Origin: a virus
IMG/VR virus record: IMGVR_UViG_3300010413_000009
Location: 1 to 17,628 of that record
Strand: one strand, 5' to 3'
Length of the DNA: 17,628 bases
Under the pieces are notes generated by a model, which was not told the DNA's origin, did no database searches, and worked only from the letters and a program-made list of their open reading frames with translations. The translations under genes were made by a program, and so were the position numbers. This document shows, one piece after another, positions 1-16,749 of this stretch. Within the stretch, counting starts at the first letter, position 1. Each line of letters opens with the position of its first letter.

Positions 1-938
1 CAGTTTTCAATGATGAGTCCGGCCTGTACGTATGACATGTCCTTGCCAAGCAAGGACACCGCGCCTGCGCCAACGACCCAGACGTCAGTGACCCCTTCCA
101 CAATGATGCAGAACGGCAAGGTTTTTGCCATGTCCGCACCGTACAGCATTAGGCGCTTGTTCGTCCGAGGACGGTTGTAGTATTTTGGCTGTCCAGCCGC
201 TTTCCAATCTATGTCGTAAGGCGGGCGTGCCTGCCATCCCACCATTTGACCATCCATGTAGATCGGAATGATCATCTTGCCGACAACGGCCGGAAATTCC
301 AACGATTCATTACAGTACGACACGTCGTATCGTTCCCCGACTACCTGTGGCGATATTCCGCGCCCCAGCAGGTACTGGCATGCGATATGCTCCACAGGCA
401 AGTTGTCCAATCGCTGACAGTGCCCTGGTAAGTCCACCACGCCCAACGAAAGGTTCTCTGTCTTGCCCGGACGAACAGTTACTCGTTGGCCATGTAATTC
501 GCGCCCGACGCCGCCATAGATCATGTTCCGGAGCGCTTTACGGTTTGCTGGATTTTCCATGCATCCTTCGTTGTAGCAGACGCACATCCACCAGAAGCGA
601 TCGTCCTTATTGTAAAGTGGGTCTGTGGGATCTAATCCTACGCCCCAGCGGTGATTGATCCATAACCGATGGCGCGTATCTACAGCACCGCGCTGGAGAC
701 AGAACGGGCAGCAAACACGGTAATACTCACCAGAACTCAATGGAGAATACCTGTTGTGCCCGCCTACGAACTCGTAGCCGCCGCCGAACATCGCCTCGCC
801 TTGCTTAGCAATTACGACGCTACCGAACTGGCGTACCAGTCGCTCATATAGCATTGGATTGAGCACGCTGGCAGTGTTATTGCCAACATCCCATTCCAAT
901 CCAGCGCCGTTATTAGGCCCGAGTGTTGTGGTATCCAT
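1..938 (-). CDS. DNA primase, DnaG/T7 gp4-like (N-terminal ~312 aa; 3' end runs off the left edge of the window). Not in the supplied ORF track because no stop lies within the window
   Basis: Manual translation of the minus strand from ATG 938..936 is open to position 1. It begins MDTTTLGPNNGAGLEWDVGNN... Zinc ribbon: CCPFC (aa 76-80), then CVCYNEGC (aa 119-126), roughly 561..713. TOPRIM-type motif LPFCIIVEGVTDVWVVGAGA (E-G-x-x-D) at about 75..118. The ATG overlaps the TAA stop of the upstream helicase gene (TAATG at 936..940), which indicates translational coupling. Confidence 0.8.
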   Translation of the reverse strand, partial: MDTTTLGPNNGAGLEWDVGNNTASVLNPMLYERLVRQFGSVVIAKQGEAMFGGGYEFVGGHNRYSPLSSGEYYRVCCPFCLQRGAVDTRHRLWINHRWGVGLDPTDPLYNKDDRFWWMCVCYNEGCMENPANRKALRNMIYGGVGRELHGQRVTVRPGKTENLSLGVVDLPGHCQRLDNLPVEHIACQYLLGRGISPQVVGERYDVSYCNESLEFPAVVGKMIIPIYMDGQMVGWQARPPYDIDWKAAGQPKYYNRPRTNKRLMLYGADMAKTLPFCIIVEGVTDVWVVGAGAVSLLGKDMSYVQAGLIIEN

Positions 939-2554
939 TACCTATCTATCACGACCTGTGGCGCCCTGTGTGCCACGCTTGAATGAAACTTGGAGACATC
1001 TGCCCGCGGCACAAGTCGCCGTGTCACATCATCGACTTGGTAGTGCTTCGAGACATCCACCATGCGACAGTACGCACCATCAATCTTAAGGATCACGGGA
1101 GGCATCGACTCCCCGTGTCGTGTCTTCGTTGCGGCGAACTGACATACGCTATGCTCTTTGTCCTTCGTGCTCAATGCAAAAGCATACCATGCGTGGTCAG
1201 CGAACGATGAACACCACTGTGCTTCTGCGTGATGCGGCAACTTCGCCGGGGGCCGATCATTCAGGCTTCCCTTGAGCTGGTGCGCAATCCACACTGTGCA
1301 GCCGAATGGCGCCGCGATCTCCTGCTTCGCACGATTGACCAGGTTCTGCAGTTGTAGTGACATACCGCTGCCGTCTATGCGCCCCTCTTCAGCCTGAAGG
1401 TAATTTGCCACCATTGCGCCAGCCCAGTCAAGCACAACCATACGGATTGGCATTCCGCGATTATGCCGGATCGCCGTCAGCTTCTGGGCGACTTCCGTGA
1501 CGTGGCCTTTCCCGCCTTTCGCCGGGTTATGATGATCAAGCAGCACGAGGTACTTATTCAGCCACGGACGTGCTTGTTCCAGCCGCTCGGTCTCGCCCAA
1601 CATTTCCGCCGGGTTAGTCGCGCTTGAATACATCGCTTTCTCATAATCCTCAAGGCGGCCGATGCGGCTCAGTTCTGAGTCATCTTTGAGAAAGCGCAGA
1701 CGATCCTTCAGTACGCGCGCACTATACGACGCCGCACGGATTTGGATCATATCCAGATCGTCTTCATAGCTGACAAATACGATAAGGCCCGGTTCCCCGT
1801 CCGCAGCGCGGCGTGTCGCCTGGTGCTGCAATCGCGCTGTGGAACATGCGAGCTGCATTGACAACGTCGTCTTACCGCCCCCGGTAGGTCCAATGAGGAC
1901 ATTGCAATCACCTGGCTGACTGCCGCCACCCATTAGAACATCAACAAAATCGACTCCCGTCGGCCATAGTGGTTTAGCCGCTTTGGCCCACCGCGTTGGT
2001 AACGTGGTGGTGGTTTCCTCCACGCTGCCCAATGCCGCGATATCGATTATGCGCTGCTGTGCCCGTTCAATGATTGCCGGTAGGTTCGCGACGCGCTGTC
2101 CGGCTGCATACGTGATCGCTTGCCGCAGCTCTTCCTCAGGTCCGCGGTCAATTAGAATCTGCCGCAGGATGAATTTGGCTTCGTGCGGTTCAAGCGCCTC
2201 GGGCGGATTGACCTGTGCGTCGAACATGAATTTGAGAATGTGCTCAGCATTCTCGAGGATCTTGCCGCCGGTGGCCGGATCCGCACGCGCGAGCGGATCA
2301 TTCTCGATGTCCGTCAGGACGCGCACGGCCAGCGACTCGTACTTCGGTAGCTGGGCATGCTGTTCGTAGAAGTCCTTTACCTCGCGCCAGATATGTCGAT
2401 AGGGCATCTCGCTCGGCCGAGAGAACATATCCGGATGCAATTCTGTGAAACACAGCTGAAAGACCGCCGGGTCCTGTATCGCGTGCATCAACAGAAATTC
2501 AATGGCAAGCCCGTTGATTTCGAATGGCGCCTGCGGTTGCTTTGTCATTTGCAT
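938..2554 (-). CDS. Replicative DNA helicase, DnaB/SF4 (RecA-fold) family
   Basis: 538 aa, ATG start. Walker A LIGPTGGGKTTLS at about 1865..1891. Walker B-like hydrophobic-D stretches: LVLLDHHNP and RMVVLDWAGAM. The N-terminal ~200 aa helical domain precedes the ATPase core, as in DnaB and gp4 helicases. SD GAGGT lies 8 nt upstream. The stop overlaps the primase start. Confidence 0.8.
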   Translation of the reverse strand: MQMTKQPQAPFEINGLAIEFLLMHAIQDPAVFQLCFTELHPDMFSRPSEMPYRHIWREVKDFYEQHAQLPKYESLAVRVLTDIENDPLARADPATGGKILENAEHILKFMFDAQVNPPEALEPHEAKFILRQILIDRGPEEELRQAITYAAGQRVANLPAIIERAQQRIIDIAALGSVEETTTTLPTRWAKAAKPLWPTGVDFVDVLMGGGSQPGDCNVLIGPTGGGKTTLSMQLACSTARLQHQATRRAADGEPGLIVFVSYEDDLDMIQIRAASYSARVLKDRLRFLKDDSELSRIGRLEDYEKAMYSSATNPAEMLGETERLEQARPWLNKYLVLLDHHNPAKGGKGHVTEVAQKLTAIRHNRGMPIRMVVLDWAGAMVANYLQAEEGRIDGSGMSLQLQNLVNRAKQEIAAPFGCTVWIAHQLKGSLNDRPPAKLPHHAEAQWCSSFADHAWYAFALSTKDKEHSVCQFAATKTRHGESMPPVILKIDGAYCRMVDVSKHYQVDDVTRRLVPRADVSKFHSSVAHRAPQVVIDR

Positions 2555-2558
2555 TGCA

Positions 2559-3296
2559 TTACCTCAGTTTGGCCATCAGTGTGATTTCCGCATCAGTCAC
2601 CAGCTCGACCGGCAGTGCCGTGTTCCAGGTTGCAACATAGCCCATTGGATCCGTCAGGAACTGCTGCATTGCTGCTTCTTTGAAGTGGTCTGCAGCCGGC
2701 AATTGCTCGCTCGTCGCGATGCAGTATCGGAACAGCGGCGGCAACTCCAGCATTGTGTTCATGAGAACATAATTCCAGAGTTGCCTGTTACTGTAGTGCG
2801 GGAATGTCGTCAGCGCTTCGTCTGCGCAGCATTCAAACTCGAGATTGGCCGATGCCAGTTCCTGCTGCAGCGATGCGTCTGCGAACCGTTGGTAGTTCAG
2901 GTAGCGGTCCATTGCTTGTTGCGTATCGAAGGTACCCGGATTTGGCGCCGACGATAGCGTATCATCCCTGGCTATGCTGTACCGATATTGCGCGTGAATG
3001 TATCTCTCGAAATTATCCACGTCGTGCACCAGTAAGAATCGTGCGATACGCATCCAGAGCGGTTTCACGTCCTTTGGACCAGTGAGGTATTCGGAGCGTC
3101 CGGATACCTGCACACTGCGGGCCTTGGCCTCCCTGAGATTGGCGGCAGCCAGTCGATACGCGGCACGATATGTCTCGTTCTGCTGCGTTGGTGTAACTAG
3201 TTCCGCGCTCTCGGGTGGAGGCTGTTGCATGTAGAGATTACCCTCACGAATACGGCCGCGCTTAAACTCATTGACTGTATCATTAGAGTCTTGCAC
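2559..3296 (-). CDS. Hypothetical protein (245 aa), positioned between the two helicase genes
   Basis: ORF with a GTG start preceded by SD GGGAG (8-nt spacer). The stop is 4 nt from the helicase ATG. It overlaps the 3' end of the SF2 helicase gene by 14 nt. No recognisable motifs. Confidence 0.55.
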   Translation of the reverse strand: MQDSNDTVNEFKRGRIREGNLYMQQPPPESAELVTPTQQNETYRAAYRLAAANLREAKARSVQVSGRSEYLTGPKDVKPLWMRIARFLLVHDVDNFERYIHAQYRYSIARDDTLSSAPNPGTFDTQQAMDRYLNYQRFADASLQQELASANLEFECCADEALTTFPHYSNRQLWNYVLMNTMLELPPLFRYCIATSEQLPAADHFKEAAMQQFLTDPMGYVATWNTALPVELVTDAEITLMAKLR

Positions 3297-4812
3297 GTCG
3301 TCTACTCCCAGGTTGCCAAATCGTGCCGTCGCTATTCAGCTGCGTCCAGCCCCGTTTGTGATACATCCGCCGGCGATTATGCGATCGCGAATGAAAGCCC
3401 GTGTCCCAGATATCGTTGCAGTCTACCAGTATGCCCGCAGTCTTGTTCGTTGCGGGATCATTACGGCAAACACGGCCAGGGATTTGCACATTGAATGTGT
3501 CGCTGTCCCCTGCCTCAGCGCGTATCAGCACGTTGAGTGAGTCGAAACTGACCCCTGTGGACCAAACTCCCGTAGCGATTACACACATCTCTCGCCGACG
3601 TTCAAATGCCTGCCCAAGCTCGATACGTCGCTGCGTCGTCATTTCTTCGTCGGGCGCCATTAAGCCTTGCTGGACGTACGATCTTCGTTTTCCTTCGTCC
3701 AAGGCACCTTCTGAATAGCACAAGGTGGCCTCTGGAAGACAACTGCGTAGGTGCATGGCATGCTCCACGGTGTCGACCATTATCAGGACTTGGAGGCCGT
3801 CTTGTAAGAACGAGCGTGCCGCATCTGCTATCACCTGATTCCGCCATGGGTTCCTCCATATTCCGTGTCGCTTCCTTGCTACTAACTGCTGAAACCTCTC
3901 AGCCGGATTGGCACCTGGATCGATATCGAGCCACTGCACATATACGTGTGCTACAAGTCCCAGCGCCTCAGCTTCTTGCTGTGTCATGTGGAAAATGCGT
4001 GGGCCGAAGATGCCTTCCATTCGATGGTGCGCATTGTCCAGTCGCATATCAGGCGTTGCTGTGAAGCAGTAGTTTCGTGACGTCCAGTATCGGCCAAGCA
4101 TGCCAGCGAGCCGATCAGTCATCAATTCATGCGCTTCATCAGCGAGCAGTATATCCGCGCTGAAATCCGAATGGTGCAAACTGTCTGCAGTGTAGACGGT
4201 AACGCGTCGATTGCGTTCCTTCTTGCCGCCGCCGATCTGGCCCATACTTGGTACCCATCGTGTGAGCAATGTCCGTATGCGCCTGACAACGTCTTTCCGT
4301 TTGGTAACGATGTCGATCTTGGCGTGCGGATACATACACGCAATCATGCCCATCAGATGCGTCTTGCCGAAAGCCGGCGGTGCATCTATCAGGCCGTAGT
4401 CGTGCATGTCGATCTGGGCCAGACACACATCCTGTTTGGGCCGTAGCTCGAACCGCTCGAAGATGCGGTCCCACTGCGCAGTATAGATGCGCTCGGCTTT
4501 AGGTTCATCCTTGTCGATGTAGATGACCTCGTAGCCCGCGCGCTGTAGGAGTCCACGCACTCGCGGATAGAAACCCTTCTGACAGACGAAACGTCCCTGC
4601 GAATCGTACTGATACAGCCGACGCTGCTCGTGCTGTTTTATCTCATGTGGACGCCCGTCGTAAGGGCCTCTATGTGCACCGTACTCGAAGTGTAGGTGTG
4701 TGTAGGTGAGCGGTTTCTCTAGTTGTCGATACGTCTTCGGCGATAATGGCTGCACGCCATCTGCAGAGACTTCGATGAACGGACCGCCCTTTTTAACAAT
4801 CGCCCTAACCAT
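3283..4812 (-). CDS. Superfamily 2 DEAH-box DNA helicase (UvsW/Res-subunit-like)
   Basis: 509 aa, ATG start. Motif I DAPPAFGKTHLMG (Walker A). Motif II LLADEAHEL (DEAH). Motif III FTATP. Motif VI QIPGRVCR. Confidence 0.8.
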   Translation of the reverse strand: MVRAIVKKGGPFIEVSADGVQPLSPKTYRQLEKPLTYTHLHFEYGAHRGPYDGRPHEIKQHEQRRLYQYDSQGRFVCQKGFYPRVRGLLQRAGYEVIYIDKDEPKAERIYTAQWDRIFERFELRPKQDVCLAQIDMHDYGLIDAPPAFGKTHLMGMIACMYPHAKIDIVTKRKDVVRRIRTLLTRWVPSMGQIGGGKKERNRRVTVYTADSLHHSDFSADILLADEAHELMTDRLAGMLGRYWTSRNYCFTATPDMRLDNAHHRMEGIFGPRIFHMTQQEAEALGLVAHVYVQWLDIDPGANPAERFQQLVARKRHGIWRNPWRNQVIADAARSFLQDGLQVLIMVDTVEHAMHLRSCLPEATLCYSEGALDEGKRRSYVQQGLMAPDEEMTTQRRIELGQAFERRREMCVIATGVWSTGVSFDSLNVLIRAEAGDSDTFNVQIPGRVCRNDPATNKTAGILVDCNDIWDTGFHSRSHNRRRMYHKRGWTQLNSDGTIWQPGSRRRARL

Positions 4813-4832
4813 GCTATCTCGTAGTGCTGGTA

Positions 4833-4861
4833 TTGACAGCGAACATACGAAGGGCTAGGAT
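4833..4861 (+). promoter_or_regulatory. Sigma70-like promoter TTGACA-N17-TAGGAT on the plus strand
   Basis: TTGACA at 4833..4838 and a 17-nt spacer, then TAGGAT at 4856..4861. The same -35/-10 pair and spacing recurs on the minus strand at 5441..5469. Confidence 0.4.
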
Positions 4862-4867
4862 CGTGGG

Positions 4868-4938
4868 AAGAATCGCCCCAACGACCATACCCTTTGGTCG
4901 CGAATTACCGGAGCCCTGCTGCTACAGGGCTCCTTTTT
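4868..4938 (+). ncRNA. Candidate ~70-nt plus-strand small RNA, antisense-oriented in the helicase / 156-aa-gene intergenic region
   Basis: Bounded by the promoter at 4833..4861 and the intrinsic terminator at 4910..4938. Contains an internal hairpin CGACC-N9-GGTCG (4882..4900). No coding capacity. The overlapping plus ORF 4824..5015 runs through the terminator, so it is unlikely to be a gene. Confidence 0.3.
4910..4938 (+). terminator. Rho-independent terminator, plus-strand oriented
   Basis: Stem GGAGCCCTG, loop CTGCTA, stem CAGGGCTCC (perfect 9-bp stem), followed by TTTTT. On the minus strand the same hairpin follows the TAA stop of gene 4937..5407 but has no U-tract. It therefore works as a terminator only for plus-strand transcripts. 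Confidence 0.6.
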
Positions 4939-5407
4939 ACGTCCTACATGCAGTCTTGTCTGCTTGCTGCCCCTGCGCCGGGGACACGTCTACTACTTCG
5001 AAAGTACCGTACTGATTATCCTTCCTGTAAGGACTGATACCGCGGTAACATCCGGCGATTCGCATAAGCTCTCTGAAGTCGTCAGCCGGTAATGAGGATG
5101 GTATAACTGCACGCACGACAATCGTATCTCCTGGGTAGAACGCTTCGTGCACAGTATACTGACTCGGCGCGTAGAAGCGCTTGTATTCGCGCGGCTCGCC
5201 ATCAATGACAGGATCCCAATCGATGTCTTTGACAGCAGCATGATGCCTATTGACGACTTTAGCCGCGTAACGCATCAATGCCTGCCACCAGGTAGGCAAG
5301 AACATTACGCGGCCGTCTGGCGCGTGGAGCATCCTGCTTATCCGCTTGTGCCTACAGTCTCCCAGTGAGTGCTGATTGAAACGAATCGTAACTGCCATTT
5401 CCCTCAT
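4937..5407 (-). CDS. Hypothetical protein (156 aa)
   Basis: ATG start with SD GGAAGG (6-nt spacer). It lies directly downstream of the TTGACA-N17-TAGGAT promoter. No recognisable motifs. Confidence 0.6.
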   Translation of the reverse strand: MREMAVTIRFNQHSLGDCRHKRISRMLHAPDGRVMFLPTWWQALMRYAAKVVNRHHAAVKDIDWDPVIDGEPREYKRFYAPSQYTVHEAFYPGDTIVVRAVIPSSLPADDFRELMRIAGCYRGISPYRKDNQYGTFEVVDVSPAQGQQADKTACRT

Positions 5408-5440: not shown

Positions 5441-5469
5441 ATCCTAGTCGTCCCTGCTGCACGTGTCAA
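5441..5469 (-). promoter_or_regulatory. Sigma70-like promoter TTGACA-N17-TAGGAT on the minus strand, driving gene 4937..5407 and downstream genes
   Basis: Minus strand: TTGACA (5469..5464), then the 17-nt spacer cgtgcagcagggacgac, then TAGGAT (5446..5441). An A-tract (gcgaaaaagtga) lies immediately upstream of the -35, like an UP element. The predicted transcription start is near 5434, about 27 nt before the ATG at 5407. Confidence 0.55.
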
Positions 5470-5495: not shown

Positions 5496-5540
5496 GGCCA
5501 CAAATTGTGGTGCGCATGGATACCGGCCACTAGATGTGGT
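5496..5540. promoter_or_regulatory. Two copies of the inverted-repeat site GGCCAC-N5-GTGGT (candidate operator or activator sites)
   Basis: Site 1 is GGCCACAAATTGTGGT at 5496..5511 (core CCACAAATTGTGG is a perfect 13-bp palindrome). Site 2 is GGCCACTAGATGTGGT at 5525..5540. Centres are 29 bp apart. The sites lie about 27 and 56 bp upstream of the -35 of the minus-strand promoter. Confidence 0.45.
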
Positions 5541-5587: not shown

Positions 5588-6619
5588 TCAGATCATCCCC
5601 GTCATCACTTGGTGCAGCTCGTAAGCCTCGACCTCAATCGGATGCTGAAAGAAGTCTGCGGGACGGAACAATGCTGCATGGCGCTCTGGTGTTGCATCAG
5701 ATTCGCGATACAGCTCACTGAGCCATGTGTGGCGCAGAAAGGCAATAAAGCGCTGAGAAGCGCGCAGATCCGCGATCACGGGATCCGCTGGTGCCCGCGC
5801 GGATGATCCCAATCCGAGTTTGCTGCCCCACGCACGCCACACGAAGTCGCACGGCGCGACGCCTGGCAATGTTGCGTCCTCTACTGGAACGGGCTTGTTG
5901 ATTTCAAACCGCTCGCGGATATCATTCTCCAGCCGGCTGTTCTTCCAACAATTCATCACCACGGCACAGCGATCGTGATATCGCCAACGCCGTTTACCGC
6001 CAGATACGCCTGCTTGCGTTTTCGGATGTAGCCCAAGCCACGCTTCAAGCTTGCCTGTGCGATCTGGCGCGCATTGATCGATGTACCATCTAGGATCGAG
6101 TATGTATGAGAGCAATCCGGCGACAGAGACCCTGTCGAGGCTCTGGATGAAAGATAGCGGACGCCATGCTGGATGCGCGCGCAGCGCGGGAATGATGGCC
6201 GCGGTGATCGCATTCTGCTCGGCAATACTCTTGAGAGCTGCCACGCACAGTGAGTACGCCCGGTAATCGGCCTCAACCACCTCATGAAAACCACCAATGC
6301 TGGGTGCGCGCTGAAACAGCAACATCCGCATCAGCAAAGCTTCTGGCTTGCGTCGCTCGCGCTCAGTCTTGCCGATGAGCGGAGTACACACTTGCACGCT
6401 GCCTATCAGGCCGCGTTGCTTACGGTCATACAGTTGTGTAATGAGCCTCGCGTTCGAGCTGGCGCCGATCACACGGATGCGATCTATTCCGTCTGCTTCG
6501 CCGCTGTCTAGGAATTCCTCCGGGCTACGACTGGACCATCGCACATCGTGGTTATTGGCCAGATACCAAACTCGACCGGCATGCACATGTATGTTCAGTA
6601 CCTGCATAGTCGTTGTCAT
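5588..6619 (-). CDS. Hypothetical protein (343 aa), translationally coupled downstream of the SbcC-like gene
   Basis: ATG at 6619..6617 overlaps the TGA stop of the SbcC-like gene (ATGA). A possible nucleotide-binding-like stretch is RIRVIGASSNARL. No confident family assignment. Confidence 0.6.
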   Translation of the reverse strand: MTTTMQVLNIHVHAGRVWYLANNHDVRWSSRSPEEFLDSGEADGIDRIRVIGASSNARLITQLYDRKQRGLIGSVQVCTPLIGKTERERRKPEALLMRMLLFQRAPSIGGFHEVVEADYRAYSLCVAALKSIAEQNAITAAIIPALRAHPAWRPLSFIQSLDRVSVAGLLSYILDPRWYIDQCAPDRTGKLEAWLGLHPKTQAGVSGGKRRWRYHDRCAVVMNCWKNSRLENDIRERFEINKPVPVEDATLPGVAPCDFVWRAWGSKLGLGSSARAPADPVIADLRASQRFIAFLRHTWLSELYRESDATPERHAALFRPADFFQHPIEVEAYELHQVMTGMI

Positions 6620-14200: not shown

Positions 14201-15097
14201 TCAGCGAACGAGCACGGCCTCCGCGCACTGATTCGCCATTTCGAGATTGGTCACCGCGCCGCGGATCTGGGTCTGTGCCCGCTGCAGGAACTCGATCTGG
14301 AGTCCGATACGCACATCCGAATTGAGCAGCATCTGGGTGGTCCCAGCATGCATCATCTCCTCCGTGACAGCTAGCGACGACTCGTCGGCTTCCACCGGCA
14401 TGCGCGGTTGTGCAGCCTCGGCTACCGTCACTAGCGCGGACGCGGCATCCGTCAACTCCGCGGAAGTTCGGATCTTATGCAGCACCTCGTAGGCGCGCTG
14501 GATAGCCAGAGGACTAGCAGTATCGTCCGTAACCGCACAGGCGTTGGCCTCTGCCAGGCACGCATCGATGTTGATGAGGTGCCCGGCGGCCTTCTCGCGC
14601 TCGACGATCATGATGAACGCATCCTCGTACGTCACCGGCAGTGCGTTAGCAACGTGCTTCGCGCGCTGCGCCACGGCCCGCTCCTTCGCGGATCGCGCCG
14701 CAAGCGTGCGGCCGTTATGCTTCGCCTTGGAATCGTACACGATGAAGATGCGATTGTCATGATCGTGCTCATCCCTGAACAGCGCAACAGCCGCATCATT
14801 GCCATTCCTCTTGAACTCGGCGATGACCTGGTTTCGGCACTGAATCGCGGCAGCGTGGGCGATAGGTTTGCCCACGTACCTCTTCTTCAACTTCCTGAAG
14901 GTGTGGCGCACGCCGTCGAGACTGCTGGCACCTGGATGCTCGCGATAGAACGCGCGGAGCTCGTTCCGATGCTTCGACCGGCCGGGATAAGTCAAAGGAT
15001 CCCATCCGGACTTGCCCTTCTTCTTGCGCTTCGTGCTGTGCGACGGTGACGACGGACGGTCGTTCCGGAACCGGCGTCTTGCAGTGGCAGATCTCAT
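14201..15097 (-). CDS. Hypothetical basic protein (298 aa), candidate DNA-binding protein
   Basis: ATG with consensus SD AGGAGG (6-nt spacer). The N-terminus is strongly basic and NLS-like: RRRFRNDRPSSPSHSTKRKKKGKSGW. The rest is Ala-rich and helical. Confidence 0.65.
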   Translation of the reverse strand: MRSATARRRFRNDRPSSPSHSTKRKKKGKSGWDPLTYPGRSKHRNELRAFYREHPGASSLDGVRHTFRKLKKRYVGKPIAHAAAIQCRNQVIAEFKRNGNDAAVALFRDEHDHDNRIFIVYDSKAKHNGRTLAARSAKERAVAQRAKHVANALPVTYEDAFIMIVEREKAAGHLINIDACLAEANACAVTDDTASPLAIQRAYEVLHKIRTSAELTDAASALVTVAEAAQPRMPVEADESSLAVTEEMMHAGTTQMLLNSDVRIGLQIEFLQRAQTQIRGAVTNLEMANQCAEAVLVR

Positions 15098-16071: not shown

Positions 16072-16282
16072 CCGAACACTCCTTGTTCTCGTGATCAAAG
16101 TCTGGAAAATGCCTATCCCGGCCTACCCAAAGTACCCAATTTCACAATATATCGGGCAAATCAGGCACGCGTGACAGAAGTCGTTACGGCCGCACGAGTT
16201 ATGACGAGAAATCGTCACTCCGGCATACCACCTCAGAGGGGAAACGTACGGCTAAATGTGCTGGGTCTTGCCTATTTTAACA

Positions 16283-16298
16283 TACGGGTTAACCCGTA
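16283..16298. promoter_or_regulatory. 16-bp perfect palindrome TACGGGTTAACCCGTA (candidate operator), within a promoter-like element on the minus strand
   Basis: Perfect dyad symmetry centred on GTTAAC. On the minus strand it sits in the 16-nt spacer between GTTACA (-35-like) and TATGTT (-10-like). The surrounding 16260..16420 is AT-rich relative to the rest of the window. Confidence 0.4.
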
Positions 16299-16381
16299 GT
16301 TGTAACTCGAGGCAGTACAAGAACTTAGCTGAGGTCAAAAATGATACCCCCCTTTTGGGATTCGGGAATTTGAAATAGTAT

Positions 16382-16445
16382 ATATTAGTCCTCATTTCAT
16401 TCGGACTAATATCGCCGCCGACCGGACGGACGAGATGTCCGTCCG
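16382..16445 (-). terminator. Tandem perfect hairpins at the operon boundary downstream of the 29-aa peptide gene
   Basis: Hairpin A is ATATTAGTCC-N11-GGACTAATAT (16382..16412; 10-bp stem). On the minus RNA it is followed by AUACUAUUUC. Hairpin B is CGGACGGAC-GAGAT-GTCCGTCCG (16423..16445; 9-bp stem). Orientation as a minus-strand terminator is inferred, and the U-tract is modest. Confidence 0.35.
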
Positions 16446-16646
16446 ATCAGGTGGCGTGATGCCCCTCTTTTTTACTATCCAGACGTTGAAGCCTTCTGCG
16501 TACCCAGCGACGGTATTCCGGACCGAGGCGTGGATACGTAAAGTCTCGACGCACCACTGGTGTTGCGCGCGTCTGTTCTGGCGAATTGCCCCGTTTGCAT
16601 TGTTGTTCGACTGCCCGCTGACGCGCAGCCTGTAGATCTGGATGTG

Positions 16647-16736
16647 TCAGAGCAGAATCGCCGCGAGTGCAATGATCAGAATAGCAACCAGTGTGAGCAC
16701 CTCGAAGATGCTCATCTTGCCGTGCTTCCGTGTCAT
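16647..16736 (-). CDS. Small hydrophobic membrane peptide (29 aa), unannotated in the ORF track because it is below the size cutoff
   Basis: Manual translation gives MTRKHGKMSIFEVLTLVAILIIALAAILL*. It has a cationic N-terminus followed by a single TM-length hydrophobic helix. Consensus SD AAGGAG lies 6 nt upstream of the ATG. It starts 11 nt after the TAG stop of the upstream 2-TM protein gene. Confidence 0.5.
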   Translation of the reverse strand: MTRKHGKMSIFEVLTLVAILIIALAAILL

Positions 16737-16749
16737 GATTGTCTCCTTG

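What the first reader, a model, noticed from the sequence alone, without database searches (positions are those of the whole stretch)
4833..4938. Plus-strand promoter plus a perfect intrinsic terminator delimit a ~70-nt antisense small RNA in an otherwise all-minus-strand region
There is a textbook terminator on the plus strand: GGAGCCCTG-CTGCTA-CAGGGCTCC followed by TTTTT. It lies in the gap between two minus-strand genes. On the minus strand it has no U-tract, so it is built to stop plus-strand transcription. Seventy-five nt upstream there is a TTGACA-N17-TAGGAT element. It matches the minus-strand promoter at 5441..5469 in both hexamers and in spacing. The bracketed transcript, about 4868..4938, contains a second hairpin and no ORF. 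It sits exactly where readthrough into, or initiation of, the SF2-helicase gene would be controlled. It might act as an antisense or trans-acting regulator. It could also be a transcriptional-interference device.
Basis: seen in the sequence. Interest (0 to 1): 0.55.

Follow-up and report, generated by a model that had tools for sequence, protein, structure and literature searches.

The report
Conserved antisense small RNA before phage helicase
A roughly 71-base non-coding RNA gene with its own promoter and terminator points against the replication genes of an uncultured large phage and is kept in at least 14 related phages, so it is probably a real antisense regulator of the helicase operon, a known kind of device in a new family.

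Summary
TTGACA-N17-TAGGAT (4833..4861, +) and the hairpin 4910..4933 plus TTTTT are present. They bracket a 71-nt unit (4868..4938) in the 124-nt gap between a 156-aa gene and an SF2 helicase gene, both on the minus strand.

No transcript has been observed; the main support is comparative. I found 14 distinct versions of the unit in metagenomic relatives (helicases 52-78% identical), always directly upstream of the helicase.
- All 14 keep a -35 TTGAC[AC] and a -10 TAnnnT. Thirteen keep a 17-nt spacer.
- All 14 keep the U-rich tail on the strand opposite to the genes.
- The flanking sequence diverges.
- Both hairpins show compensatory changes: 91.8% of cells paired, 14 pairs changed on both sides, 0 of 500 shuffles as high.

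No Rfam family matches, and no ORF is conserved on either strand.

Best reading: a cis-encoded antisense RNA (countertranscript) that tunes the helicase/DnaB-like operon. The closest analogues are lambda OOP and plasmid copy-control RNAs. In about half of the loci its 5' part is also complementary to the helicase start region.

It is a new RNA family of a known kind.

In passing, the 343-aa protein two genes upstream has a TasR/IS110-like fold.

The parts
4833..4838 (+). -35 hexamer TTGACA of the small-RNA promoter
   Evidence: TTGAC[AC] is present in 14 of 14 homologous loci. Identity between the two subgroups is 0.83, against 0.18-0.40 in the flanks.
4856..4861 (+). -10 hexamer TAGGAT, 17 nt after the -35
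   Evidence: TAnnnT is found in 14 of 14 loci (TAGGAT, TAGTAT, TACGAT, TACTAT, TACCAT, TATCAT, TATATT). The spacer is 17 nt in 13 of 14 and 18 nt in one.
4868..4938 (+). Predicted 71-nt non-coding RNA. The start is inferred as the A located 7 nt after the -10; the end is in the U-run.
   Evidence: Fold of -28.4 kcal/mol, z = -5.35. Covariance model R1, built on 8 homologues, scores it at 73 bits (it is one of those 8). It finds 3 subgroup-B members outside the training set at E = 1e-7 to 5e-5. No Rfam match.
4873..4903 (+). Hairpin 1. The upper stem is 4883-4887 paired with 4895-4899, with a C-rich loop. A weaker lower stem pairs 4873-4876 with 4900-4903.
   Evidence: Upper stem: 4 of 7 pairs show changes on both sides and 93% of cells are paired. 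Lower stem: only 77% paired. The segment GTCGCGAAT (3' arm plus linker) is invariant in the 8 subgroup-A sequences.
4910..4933 (+). Terminator stem-loop GGAGCCCTG-CTGCTA-CAGGGCTCC
   Evidence: The hairpin alone folds at -17.7 kcal/mol. Eight of 10 pairs show compensatory changes and 100% of cells are paired.
4934..4938 (+). U-tract of the terminator. It overlaps the stop codon (4937-4939) of the 156-aa gene by 2 nt.
   Evidence: There are 4-8 U in the 8 nt after the stem on this strand and 1-4 on the gene strand. The count is higher on this strand in 14 of 14 loci.
3283..4812 (-). SF2 helicase gene, first gene of the helicase / 245-aa / DnaB-like block and the presumed target operon
   Evidence: Pfam Helicase_C and ResIII, PHROG 16 DNA helicase. 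The small-RNA unit is always directly upstream of its homologue, with the -35 lying 18-31 nt from the ATG.
4798..4805 (-). GGGCGATT in helicase codons 3-5, complementary to RNA nt 4-11 (4871-4878); 13 of 15 nt pair over +4..+18
   Evidence: The 8-mer occurs only at these two places in the window. The local alignment has p = 0.002. The helicase start region ranks in the top 2.4% of windows for pairing. This feature is not conserved in all loci.
5441..5469 (-). Forward promoter TTGACA-N17-TAGGAT facing the small-RNA promoter. It presumably drives the 156-aa gene and the helicase operon.
   Evidence: Equivalent promoters are seen in L001, L002, L003 and L034, and in L046 and L049.
4937..5407 (-). 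156-aa gene of unknown function upstream of the unit. It is dispensable for the unit.
   Evidence: No family or solved-structure hit. The gene is absent in L001, L034 and L046, which still carry the small-RNA unit.

Best explanation
Positions 4868..4938 (+) are a small non-coding RNA gene.

Proposed mechanism:
1. Host sigma-70-type RNA polymerase starts at the promoter 4833-4861, transcribes about 71 nt against the direction of all neighbouring genes, and stops at the intrinsic terminator 4910-4938.
2. The RNA is perfectly complementary to the stretch of the long minus-strand mRNA that lies just ahead of the SF2 helicase gene. In this window that stretch is intercistronic; in relatives that lack the 156-aa gene it is the 5' leader.
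3. I propose that it acts as a countertranscript. Its duplex with the nascent or mature operon mRNA leads to processing or decay (RNase III type).
4. Its promoter sits 20 nt from the helicase ATG and faces the forward promoter, so polymerase bound there also obstructs incoming polymerases.
5. Together these effects would tune expression of the helicase/DnaB-like replication genes, possibly in proportion to phage genome copy number.
6. In about half of the family the 5' tail and the C-rich loop can also pair imperfectly with the real helicase ribosome-binding and start region, which would add translational repression.

Shown: the sequence elements, their conservation and the covariation. Inferred: transcription itself, the target and the direction of the effect.
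For: - Motifs: the promoter and terminator are present and non-random.
- Distribution: 14 distinct homologous units sit directly upstream of helicase homologues from independent metagenomes.
- Promoter signature: the -35 is present in 14 of 14, a -10 TAnnnT in 14 of 14, and a 17-nt spacer in 13 of 14. Identity between the two subgroups is 0.83 for the -35 and 0.66 for the -10, against 0.18-0.40 for the flanks and spacer.
- Terminator orientation: the tail is more U-rich on the anti-gene strand in 14 of 14. A genuine minus-strand terminator in the same window (14182..14158) carries its T-run on the gene strand.
- Structure: 91.8% of cells paired against 77.4% when shuffled, 14 pairs with changes on both sides, covariation score 0.483 against 0.199, and 0 of 500 shuffles as high. 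Sliding the 3' partner by one column or more drops pairing to 33-42%.
- Independent detection: a model built on subgroup A alone detects subgroup B members at E = 1e-7 to 5e-5.
- The RNA product appears to matter: GTCGCGAAT is invariant in 8 sequences whose helicases are only about 70-78% identical.
- Link to the helicase rather than the upstream gene: the unit persists where the 156-aa gene is missing (L001, L034, L046) or where another small ORF intervenes (L003).
- Extra pairing with the helicase start region: it ranks at or below the 5% tail in 5 of 14 loci and at or below 9% in 7 of 14. The seed co-varies between subgroups, AAUCGCC:GGCGAUU against UACCGCC:GGCGGUA (read directly from the sequences).
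- Precedent: lambda pO-oop-tO is a short leftward RNA ended by a hairpin terminator. It overlaps cII and mediates RNase III-dependent cleavage of cII-O mRNA (PMC5869508).
Against: - There are no expression data of any kind, the host is unknown, and sigma-70 use is inferred from motif shape only.
- Covariation does not identify the strand. Folding energies favour the plus strand in 5 loci and the minus strand in 4. G-U against A-C counts in the two good helices are only 7 against 2.
- The structure-based alignment was fitted to the model and the sequences are related, so the shuffle statistics overstate significance.
- The unit is absent from 5 related lineages in which the helicase abuts or overlaps the upstream gene (L004, L048, L052, the P0011 contig) or has a different upstream region (L054). 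It is therefore dispensable.
- Complementarity to the helicase start region is missing in about half of the loci.
- The direction and size of any regulatory effect cannot be derived from sequence.
Confidence: 0.55

Rival explanations
1. Pure transcriptional-interference or insulator device. What matters is the act of firing a convergent promoter next to the helicase start. The terminator only stops antisense transcription from entering upstream genes, and the RNA itself has no function.
For: The two face-to-face promoters have identical hexamers. The -35 lies only 18-31 nt from the helicase ATG in all loci. A tight terminator 70 nt downstream is conserved.
Against: Hairpin 1 is maintained by compensatory changes, and a 9-nt segment of the transcript is invariant in subgroup A. 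Interference alone would not require either.
Confidence: 0.15
2. Trans-acting small RNA whose C-rich hairpin loop (UCCCC-type) and A/U-rich linker pair with Shine-Dalgarno regions of phage or host mRNAs elsewhere. Its position next to the helicase would be incidental or only partly relevant.
For: C-rich apical loops are seen in most members (UAUCCCCG, UGCCCC, CGCCC). An A/U-rich single-stranded linker precedes a U-tailed terminator, which by general knowledge resembles an Hfq-type module. The best, non-significant Rfam resemblance is to the C-rich-loop RNA RsaE (14.2 bits, E = 4.5).
Against: The position upstream of the helicase is fixed in 14 of 14 loci. No conserved complementary site was found elsewhere in the sequences held. 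Complementarity between a C-rich loop and a Shine-Dalgarno sequence is easy to obtain by chance.
Confidence: 0.15
3. The functional element is on the gene strand. The hairpins would be a 3' stabiliser or processing site for the upstream gene, or a 5'-UTR structure of the helicase mRNA, and the plus-strand promoter-like hexamers would be fortuitous.
For: Both hairpins fold about equally well on the minus strand. The hairpin abuts the stop codon of the 156-aa gene.
Against: This does not explain the selective conservation of -35, -10 and spacing across 14 loci. It does not explain the A-run before, rather than a U-run after, the hairpin on the gene strand. It does not explain persistence without the upstream gene.
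Confidence: 0.07
4. Partner or guide RNA of the neighbouring 343-aa protein, which has a TasR/IS110-like fold.
Against: The protein gene is kept in L004, L048 and L054, which lack the RNA. The RNA has no tandem units, no dual spacers and no conserved CCA...UG boxes (PMC12045711; sequences). It has its own terminator, it is antisense to the protein gene, and no guide-like match to nearby DNA was found.
Confidence: 0.05
5. Primer or R-loop RNA of a replication origin located in the replication module.
For: The unit lies among the helicase, DnaB-like and SbcCD-like genes. Lambda oop was historically considered in this role.
Against: The transcript is G+C-rich and structured and ends at a strong terminator. 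There are no iterons and no A+T-rich unwinding element in the 124-nt gap.
Confidence: 0.03

Closest known systems
Bacteriophage lambda OOP RNA (pO-oop-tO)
   Same: Both are short RNAs with their own sigma-70 promoter, transcribed against an early operon and ended by a hairpin terminator. In both, the promoter lies at the start of the replication gene (O in lambda, the helicase here). The OOP duplex with the operon mRNA is cut by RNase III (PMC5869508).
   Different: There is no sequence or model similarity. OOP overlaps 52 nt of the upstream cII coding region and acts on cII. This RNA overlaps only the stop codon and stays linked to the downstream helicase even when the upstream gene is absent. 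The phage type is also different: a large environmental phage, with related contigs up to about 227 kb.
Plasmid replication countertranscripts (R1 CopA/CopT, ColE1 RNA I, pT181 RNA I); comparison from general knowledge
   Same: These are constitutively made structured RNAs of about 70-100 nt, antisense to the leader of a replication-gene mRNA. They give gene-dosage-dependent negative control and start pairing through a hairpin loop.
   Different: The CopA-type leader peptide coupling was tested and is not conserved here. A 24-codon uORF ending 1 nt before the helicase ATG exists in the window, but it lacks a start codon in L033, L034 and L045 and changes frame and length elsewhere. No attenuator terminator lies between the target and the helicase start.
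Phage P22 sar RNA (Rfam RF00262) and RsaE/RoxS (RF01820)
   Same: They are small two-hairpin regulatory RNAs. sar is a phage antisense RNA, and RsaE uses C-rich loops against ribosome-binding sites.
   Different: Scores are 12.6 bits and 14.2 bits against gathering thresholds of 43 and 79, with E = 7.4 and 4.5. This RNA is not a member of either family.

Membership tests
Intrinsic (Rho-independent) terminator | G+C-rich stem-loop followed immediately by a U-tract on the transcribed strand | tested here: met
   9-bp stem with 7 G-C pairs, 6-nt loop and 5 U. Hairpin energy -17.7 kcal/mol. The tail is U-rich on the plus strand and not on the gene strand in 14 of 14 homologues.
Intrinsic (Rho-independent) terminator | Termination activity | not testable with these tools
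   Needs in vitro transcription or Term-seq.
Sigma-70-type promoter | -35 TTGACA-like and -10 TAnnnT hexamers separated by 17 +/- 1 nt | tested here: met
   10 of 12 consensus matches with a 17-nt spacer. The pattern is conserved in 14 of 14 homologues, with variation confined to -10 positions 3-5.
Sigma-70-type promoter | Initiation in vivo | not testable with these tools
   No transcriptome is available and the host is unknown.
Cis-encoded antisense RNA / countertranscript (functional class) | Independent transcription unit on the strand opposite to, and overlapping, a transcribed region of the target operon | tested here: inconclusive
   The geometry fits: the unit lies between the forward promoter 5469..5441 and the helicase ATG at 4812, and inside the 5' leader in L001, L034 and L046. 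Co-transcription of the 156-aa gene and the helicase is inferred, not shown.
Lambda OOP RNA family | Sequence or structure homology to oop and overlap with the 3' coding end of the upstream gene | tested here: not met
   No Rfam or phage-database similarity. The overlap with the upstream ORF is 2 nt, against 52 nt for OOP.
R1 CopA/CopT-type control | Conserved leader peptide translationally coupled to the replication gene, with the antisense RNA covering its start | tested here: not met
   The uORF 4888..4814 exists in the window. It has no ATG in L033, L034 and L045, stops after 10 codons in L032, and is in another frame in L002.
Type I toxin-antitoxin | Conserved small hydrophobic toxin ORF opposite the RNA | tested here: not met
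   The window peptide MVVGAILPTILALRMFAVNTSTTR is hydrophobic, but the homologous positions do not encode a conserved peptide.
Rfam families (all 4227) | Score at or above the gathering threshold | tested here: not met
   No hits at gathering thresholds. The best sub-threshold hits have E = 3.3-7.7.
TIGR tigRNA | Tandem units with two 8-12-nt spacers flanked by box C (CCA) and box D (UG) next to a Tas gene | tested here: not met
   There is one copy per locus and no tandem array. The CCA of hairpin 1 is not conserved (UCG or CUG in L033, L034 and L045). Family definition from PMC12045711.

The most novel reading that the evidence does not exclude
The small RNA is the missing RNA partner of the adjacent 343-aa TasR/IS110-like protein (RuvC-like plus Nop-like fold, with histidine at the position of the catalytic D11). 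Together they would form a single-guide, array-less RNA-guided DNA-binding module inside a phage replication operon, for example repressing or marking the helicase promoter region.
Probability: 0.05. Interest if true: 0.85.

Novelty: new member of a known kind. Interest (0 to 1): 0.5.

Why it matters
Few phage small RNAs are backed by more than one genome. This one has a promoter signature, a terminator orientation and hairpin covariation conserved across 14 divergent uncultured phages, which makes it one of the better computationally supported phage antisense RNAs. It points to antisense control of replication-gene dosage, familiar from lambda and from plasmids, in a lineage of large environmental phages. 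It offers a compact and testable unit: about 105 bp from the -35 to the end of the terminator. It also gives an anchor for annotating this lineage, including the neighbouring TasR/IS110-like protein that has no recognised guide RNA.

Tried and rejected
- Near-identity search against 50,697 phage records found nothing. The helicase has only about 23-25% identical relatives in known phages (T5-like Vibrio phages, cyanophages), and the 156-aa protein has none.
- A 17-mer scan of IMG/VR gave 27 stretches; only the two already known loci were real.
- The helicase-profile scan of 185,579 species genomes found nothing.
Covariance model R1 rejected all of the new stretches. One biased 22.6-bit hit, L147, was ignored.
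- Unrestricted RNAduplex of the whole RNA against the helicase start region gave long implausible duplexes and no signal. It was replaced by ranking restricted windows.
- Comparing folding energies of the two strands did not discriminate between them.
- MAFFT alignments put the terminator arms out of register, so a hand-specified structure and model-based realignment were used.
- Rejected ideas: a conserved uORF or leader peptide, a type I toxin, a tigRNA, a forward promoter inside the unit (none listed, and no conserved -35/-10 pair on the gene strand), a tRNA or tmRNA, and a replication origin (no repeats or A+T-rich tract).
- The idea that the gene-strand copy of the RNA's 5' part is a decayed duplicate of the helicase start region is supported in some loci only: window, L002 and L032 clearly, L003 and L034 marginally.

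Full report
OBSERVATION

The plus strand carries TTGACA (4833-4838), a 17-nt spacer and TAGGAT (4856-4861). It also carries a perfect 9-bp stem with a 6-nt loop at 4910-4933, followed by TTTTT at 4934-4938. The unit fills most of the 124-nt gap between two minus-strand ORFs, 3283..4812 and 4937..5407. On the minus strand the hairpin is followed by GGTAATTC, which is not a U-tract.

The only other TTGACA-N17-TAGGAT in the window is the minus-strand site 5469..5441. With one mismatch allowed, the expected number of sites is 0.04, and none of 200 shuffles gave two. The 71-nt RNA 4868..4938 folds into two hairpins at -28.4 kcal/mol, z = -5.35. Terminator-like hits as a class are not enriched in the window (14 found, 14.5 expected), so the single-sequence evidence is suggestive only. 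The same sequence occurs in two independent assemblies.

CONTEXT

All long ORFs are on the minus strand and form a phage replication and repair module:
- a DnaB-like helicase (938..2554);
- a 245-aa protein;
- an SF2 helicase (3283..4812);
- a 156-aa protein of unknown function;
- a 343-aa protein;
- an SbcC/Rad50-like ATPase (6616..8754);
- a weakly metallophosphatase-like protein (9324..10460);
- an HldE-like kinase/adenylyltransferase (11143..12648).

Nothing similar at the DNA level exists among 50,697 deposited phage genomes, and protein similarity to known phages is only 23-25%. Relatives are metagenomic contigs of up to about 227 kb.

COMPARATIVE EVIDENCE

Using the helicase as an anchor, I collected the region upstream of its homologues (52-78% protein identity). 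Fourteen distinct versions of the unit were found: the window (identical in L043 and L044), L001, L002, L003, L032, L033, L034, L036 (same as L050), L037 (same as L051), L041, L045, L046, L049 and L053. They form two subgroups:
- subgroup A: window, L032, L045, L034, L033, L001, L002, L046;
- subgroup B: the remaining six.

Promoter. All 14 have TTGAC[AC] and a -10 of the form TAnnnT (TAGGAT, TAGTAT, TACGAT, TACTAT, TACCAT, TATCAT, TATATT). T1, A2 and T6 are invariant and positions 3 and 4 vary freely. The spacer is 17 nt in 13 loci and 18 nt in one. Between subgroups the -35 is 83% identical and the -10 is 66% identical. The 10 nt upstream, the spacer and the 6 nt downstream are 18%, 40% and 35% identical. 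This is the pattern expected of a promoter under selection.

Terminator. The 8 nt after the terminator stem contain 4-8 U on the anti-gene strand and 1-4 on the gene strand. The anti-gene strand has more in every locus. A gene-strand terminator elsewhere in the window (14182..14158) carries its T-run on the gene strand.

Structure. A covariance model built from subgroup A with a hand-specified structure recovered three subgroup B members that were not used to build it, at E = 1e-7 to 5e-5. It found exactly one copy per locus and none elsewhere in the window. On the resulting 11-sequence alignment:
- 91.8% of cells form standard pairs, against 77.4% when shuffled;
- 14 of 23 pairs have changes on both sides;
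- the covariation score is 0.483 against 0.199, with 0 of 500 shuffles as high;
- sliding the 3' partners by one to three columns drops pairing to 33-42%;
- the terminator has 8 of 10 compensatory pairs and 100% pairing;
- the upper stem of hairpin 1 has 4 of 7 compensatory pairs and 93% pairing;
- the lower stem is weak, at 77% pairing.

Two caveats apply. The alignment is fitted to the model, and the sequences are related.

Other observations:
- The strand cannot be read from covariation. Folding energies are split between the strands, and G-U against A-C counts in the two good helices are only 7 against 2.
- GTCGCGAAT (3' arm of hairpin 1 plus linker) is invariant in subgroup A.
- No ORF is conserved on either strand. 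The 24-codon minus-strand uORF of the window (4888..4814) has no start codon in L033, L034 and L045 and differs in frame or length in L032 and L002.
- Rfam gives nothing.

WHAT THE UNIT IS LINKED TO

The unit always sits with its -35 located 18-31 nt from the helicase ATG, whatever lies upstream:
- the 156-aa gene in the window and in L002;
- an extra small Cys-rich ORF in L003 and its relatives;
- nothing but the forward promoter in L001, L034 and L046, where the RNA is antisense to the 5' leader of the helicase operon.

Five related lineages lack the unit. In four of them the helicase directly abuts or overlaps the upstream gene (L004, L048, L052, the P0011 contig). L054 has a different upstream region. 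The unit is therefore an accessory element attached to the entry of the helicase operon.

MECHANISM

The best-supported reading is a cis-encoded antisense RNA. It would be made from a strong promoter that faces the operon promoter, be terminated after about 71 nt, and be perfectly complementary to the operon mRNA just ahead of the helicase gene.

Known systems suggest what follows: lambda OOP (PMC5869508) and, from general knowledge, plasmid countertranscripts. By analogy, duplex formation would lead to RNase III-type processing or decay. Polymerase sitting on a promoter 20 nt from the helicase ATG would also obstruct incoming polymerases.

A second layer is possible. RNA nt 4-11 (AAUCGCCC) are complementary to helicase codons 3-5 (GGGCGAUU), and these are the only two occurrences of that 8-mer in the window. 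Over +4..+18, 13 of 15 nt pair. The helicase start region ranks in the best 5% of all gene-strand windows for pairing with RNA nt 1-34 in 5 of 14 loci, and in the best 9% in 7 of 14. Subgroup B shows the compensating pair UACCGCC:GGCGGUA at the same place. The gene-strand copy of this part of the RNA resembles the true helicase start region in some loci. The resemblance is clear in the window (p = 0.002), L002 (p < 0.001 over 34 nt) and L032 (p = 0.016) and marginal in L003 and L034, which hints at an origin by duplication. Because the feature is missing in about half of the loci, I treat it as secondary.

I put about 0.85 on the unit being a real RNA gene. I put 0.55 on the full statement that it is a countertranscript regulating the helicase operon.

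RIVALS

- Interference only (0.15) does not explain the conserved hairpin 1 and linker.
- A trans-acting RNA with a C-rich loop (0.15) does not explain the fixed position.
- A gene-strand element with a fortuitous promoter (0.07) does not explain the promoter signature or the orientation of the U-tract.
- A partner RNA of the neighbouring Tas-like protein (0.05) is discussed in the next section.
- A replication primer (0.03) does not fit a G+C-rich, terminated transcript in a gap that has no iterons or A+T-rich tract.

NEIGHBOURING PROTEIN, NOTICED IN PASSING

The 343-aa protein (5588..6619, minus strand) and three homologues give weak but consistent NCBIfam hits to the TIGR-Tas endonuclease model. 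A model built from 24 homologues is confident (pLDDT 91.8).
- Its best Foldseek matches are the two chains of TIGR-TasR (probability 0.99).
- The protein therefore has a RuvC-like domain plus a Nop-like domain. A near-invariant histidine sits at residue 11, on the first strand, the residue number of the TasR catalytic aspartate (the D11A mutant in PMC12045711). The equivalence was not checked by a residue-level alignment.

No TIGR array is visible in the window.

The small RNA is unlikely to be its guide. The protein gene persists in L004, L048 and L054, which lack the RNA. The RNA is single-copy, has its own terminator, and lacks dual spacers and conserved CCA/UG boxes. No guide-like matches were found nearby. 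The possibility is not strictly excluded, so it is my "most novel reading".

COMPARISON AND NOVELTY

The unit works like lambda OOP or a plasmid countertranscript. It is not a member of any described RNA family, and its sequence and structure are new. Its target geometry also differs from OOP: it is linked to the downstream replication gene and has a 2-nt rather than a 52-nt overlap with the upstream ORF. I class it as a new member of a known kind, with an interest score of 0.5. It is real and well conserved, and it is useful for annotating and studying large environmental phages. It is not conceptually surprising unless the Tas-like connection or the dual cis/trans control proves true.

Noticed in passing
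[not shown]
   Followed up: partly
window 5498..5539 (-), upstream of the forward promoter 5441..5469: Two 13-bp palindromes, CCACATCTAGTGG (5539..5527) and CCACAATTTGTGG (5510..5498), lie 29 nt apart just upstream of the -35. A related 'ACAAAAT' box lies upstream of the equivalent promoter (about 20-45 nt from the -35 where one is recognisable) in L001-L004, L034, L046, L049 and L054. This is a candidate regulator-binding site.
   Followed up: partly
window 4814..4888 (-): A 24-codon hydrophobic uORF (MVVGAILPTILALRMFAVNTSTTR) starts inside the RNA-complementary region and stops 1 nt before the helicase ATG. It resembles tap/repA coupling but is not conserved: there is no ATG in L033, L034 and L045, and the length or frame differs in L032 and L002.
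   Followed up: yes
window 4863..4890 versus 4790..4830 (-): The gene-strand sequence under the 5' part of the RNA resembles the true helicase Shine-Dalgarno, start and first codons. In L002 the match is 34 nt at 71% identity. This suggests that the unit arose by duplication of the helicase start region.
   Followed up: partly
window 14158..14182 (-): A canonical gene-strand terminator (10-bp stem followed by CACTTTTCC) lies in the gap after ORF 14201..15097. It is a useful contrast showing that this phage's forward terminators carry their T-run on the gene strand.
   Followed up: no
window 16099..16749: A 650-nt region without a long ORF contains a small membrane-like ORF (16736 to 16650, minus strand). 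It also holds several different hairpins, including the perfect 10-bp inverted repeat ATATTAGTCC/GGACTAATAT (about 16380-16412), followed by an A+T-rich stretch. It could be a regulatory or origin-like region.
   Followed up: no
window 11143..12648 (-): A phage-encoded HldE-like bifunctional PfkB kinase plus cytidylyltransferase-like protein (Pfam E = 7e-33 and 3e-16). This is unusual in a replication module and may relate to sugar-nucleotide supply or DNA modification.
   Followed up: no
L048 3726..4524; helicase homologues P0022, P0059, P0067, P0098: Some relatives carry intein or homing-endonuclease domains (Hint, Hom_end) inside the DnaB-like or SF2 helicase genes.
   Followed up: no
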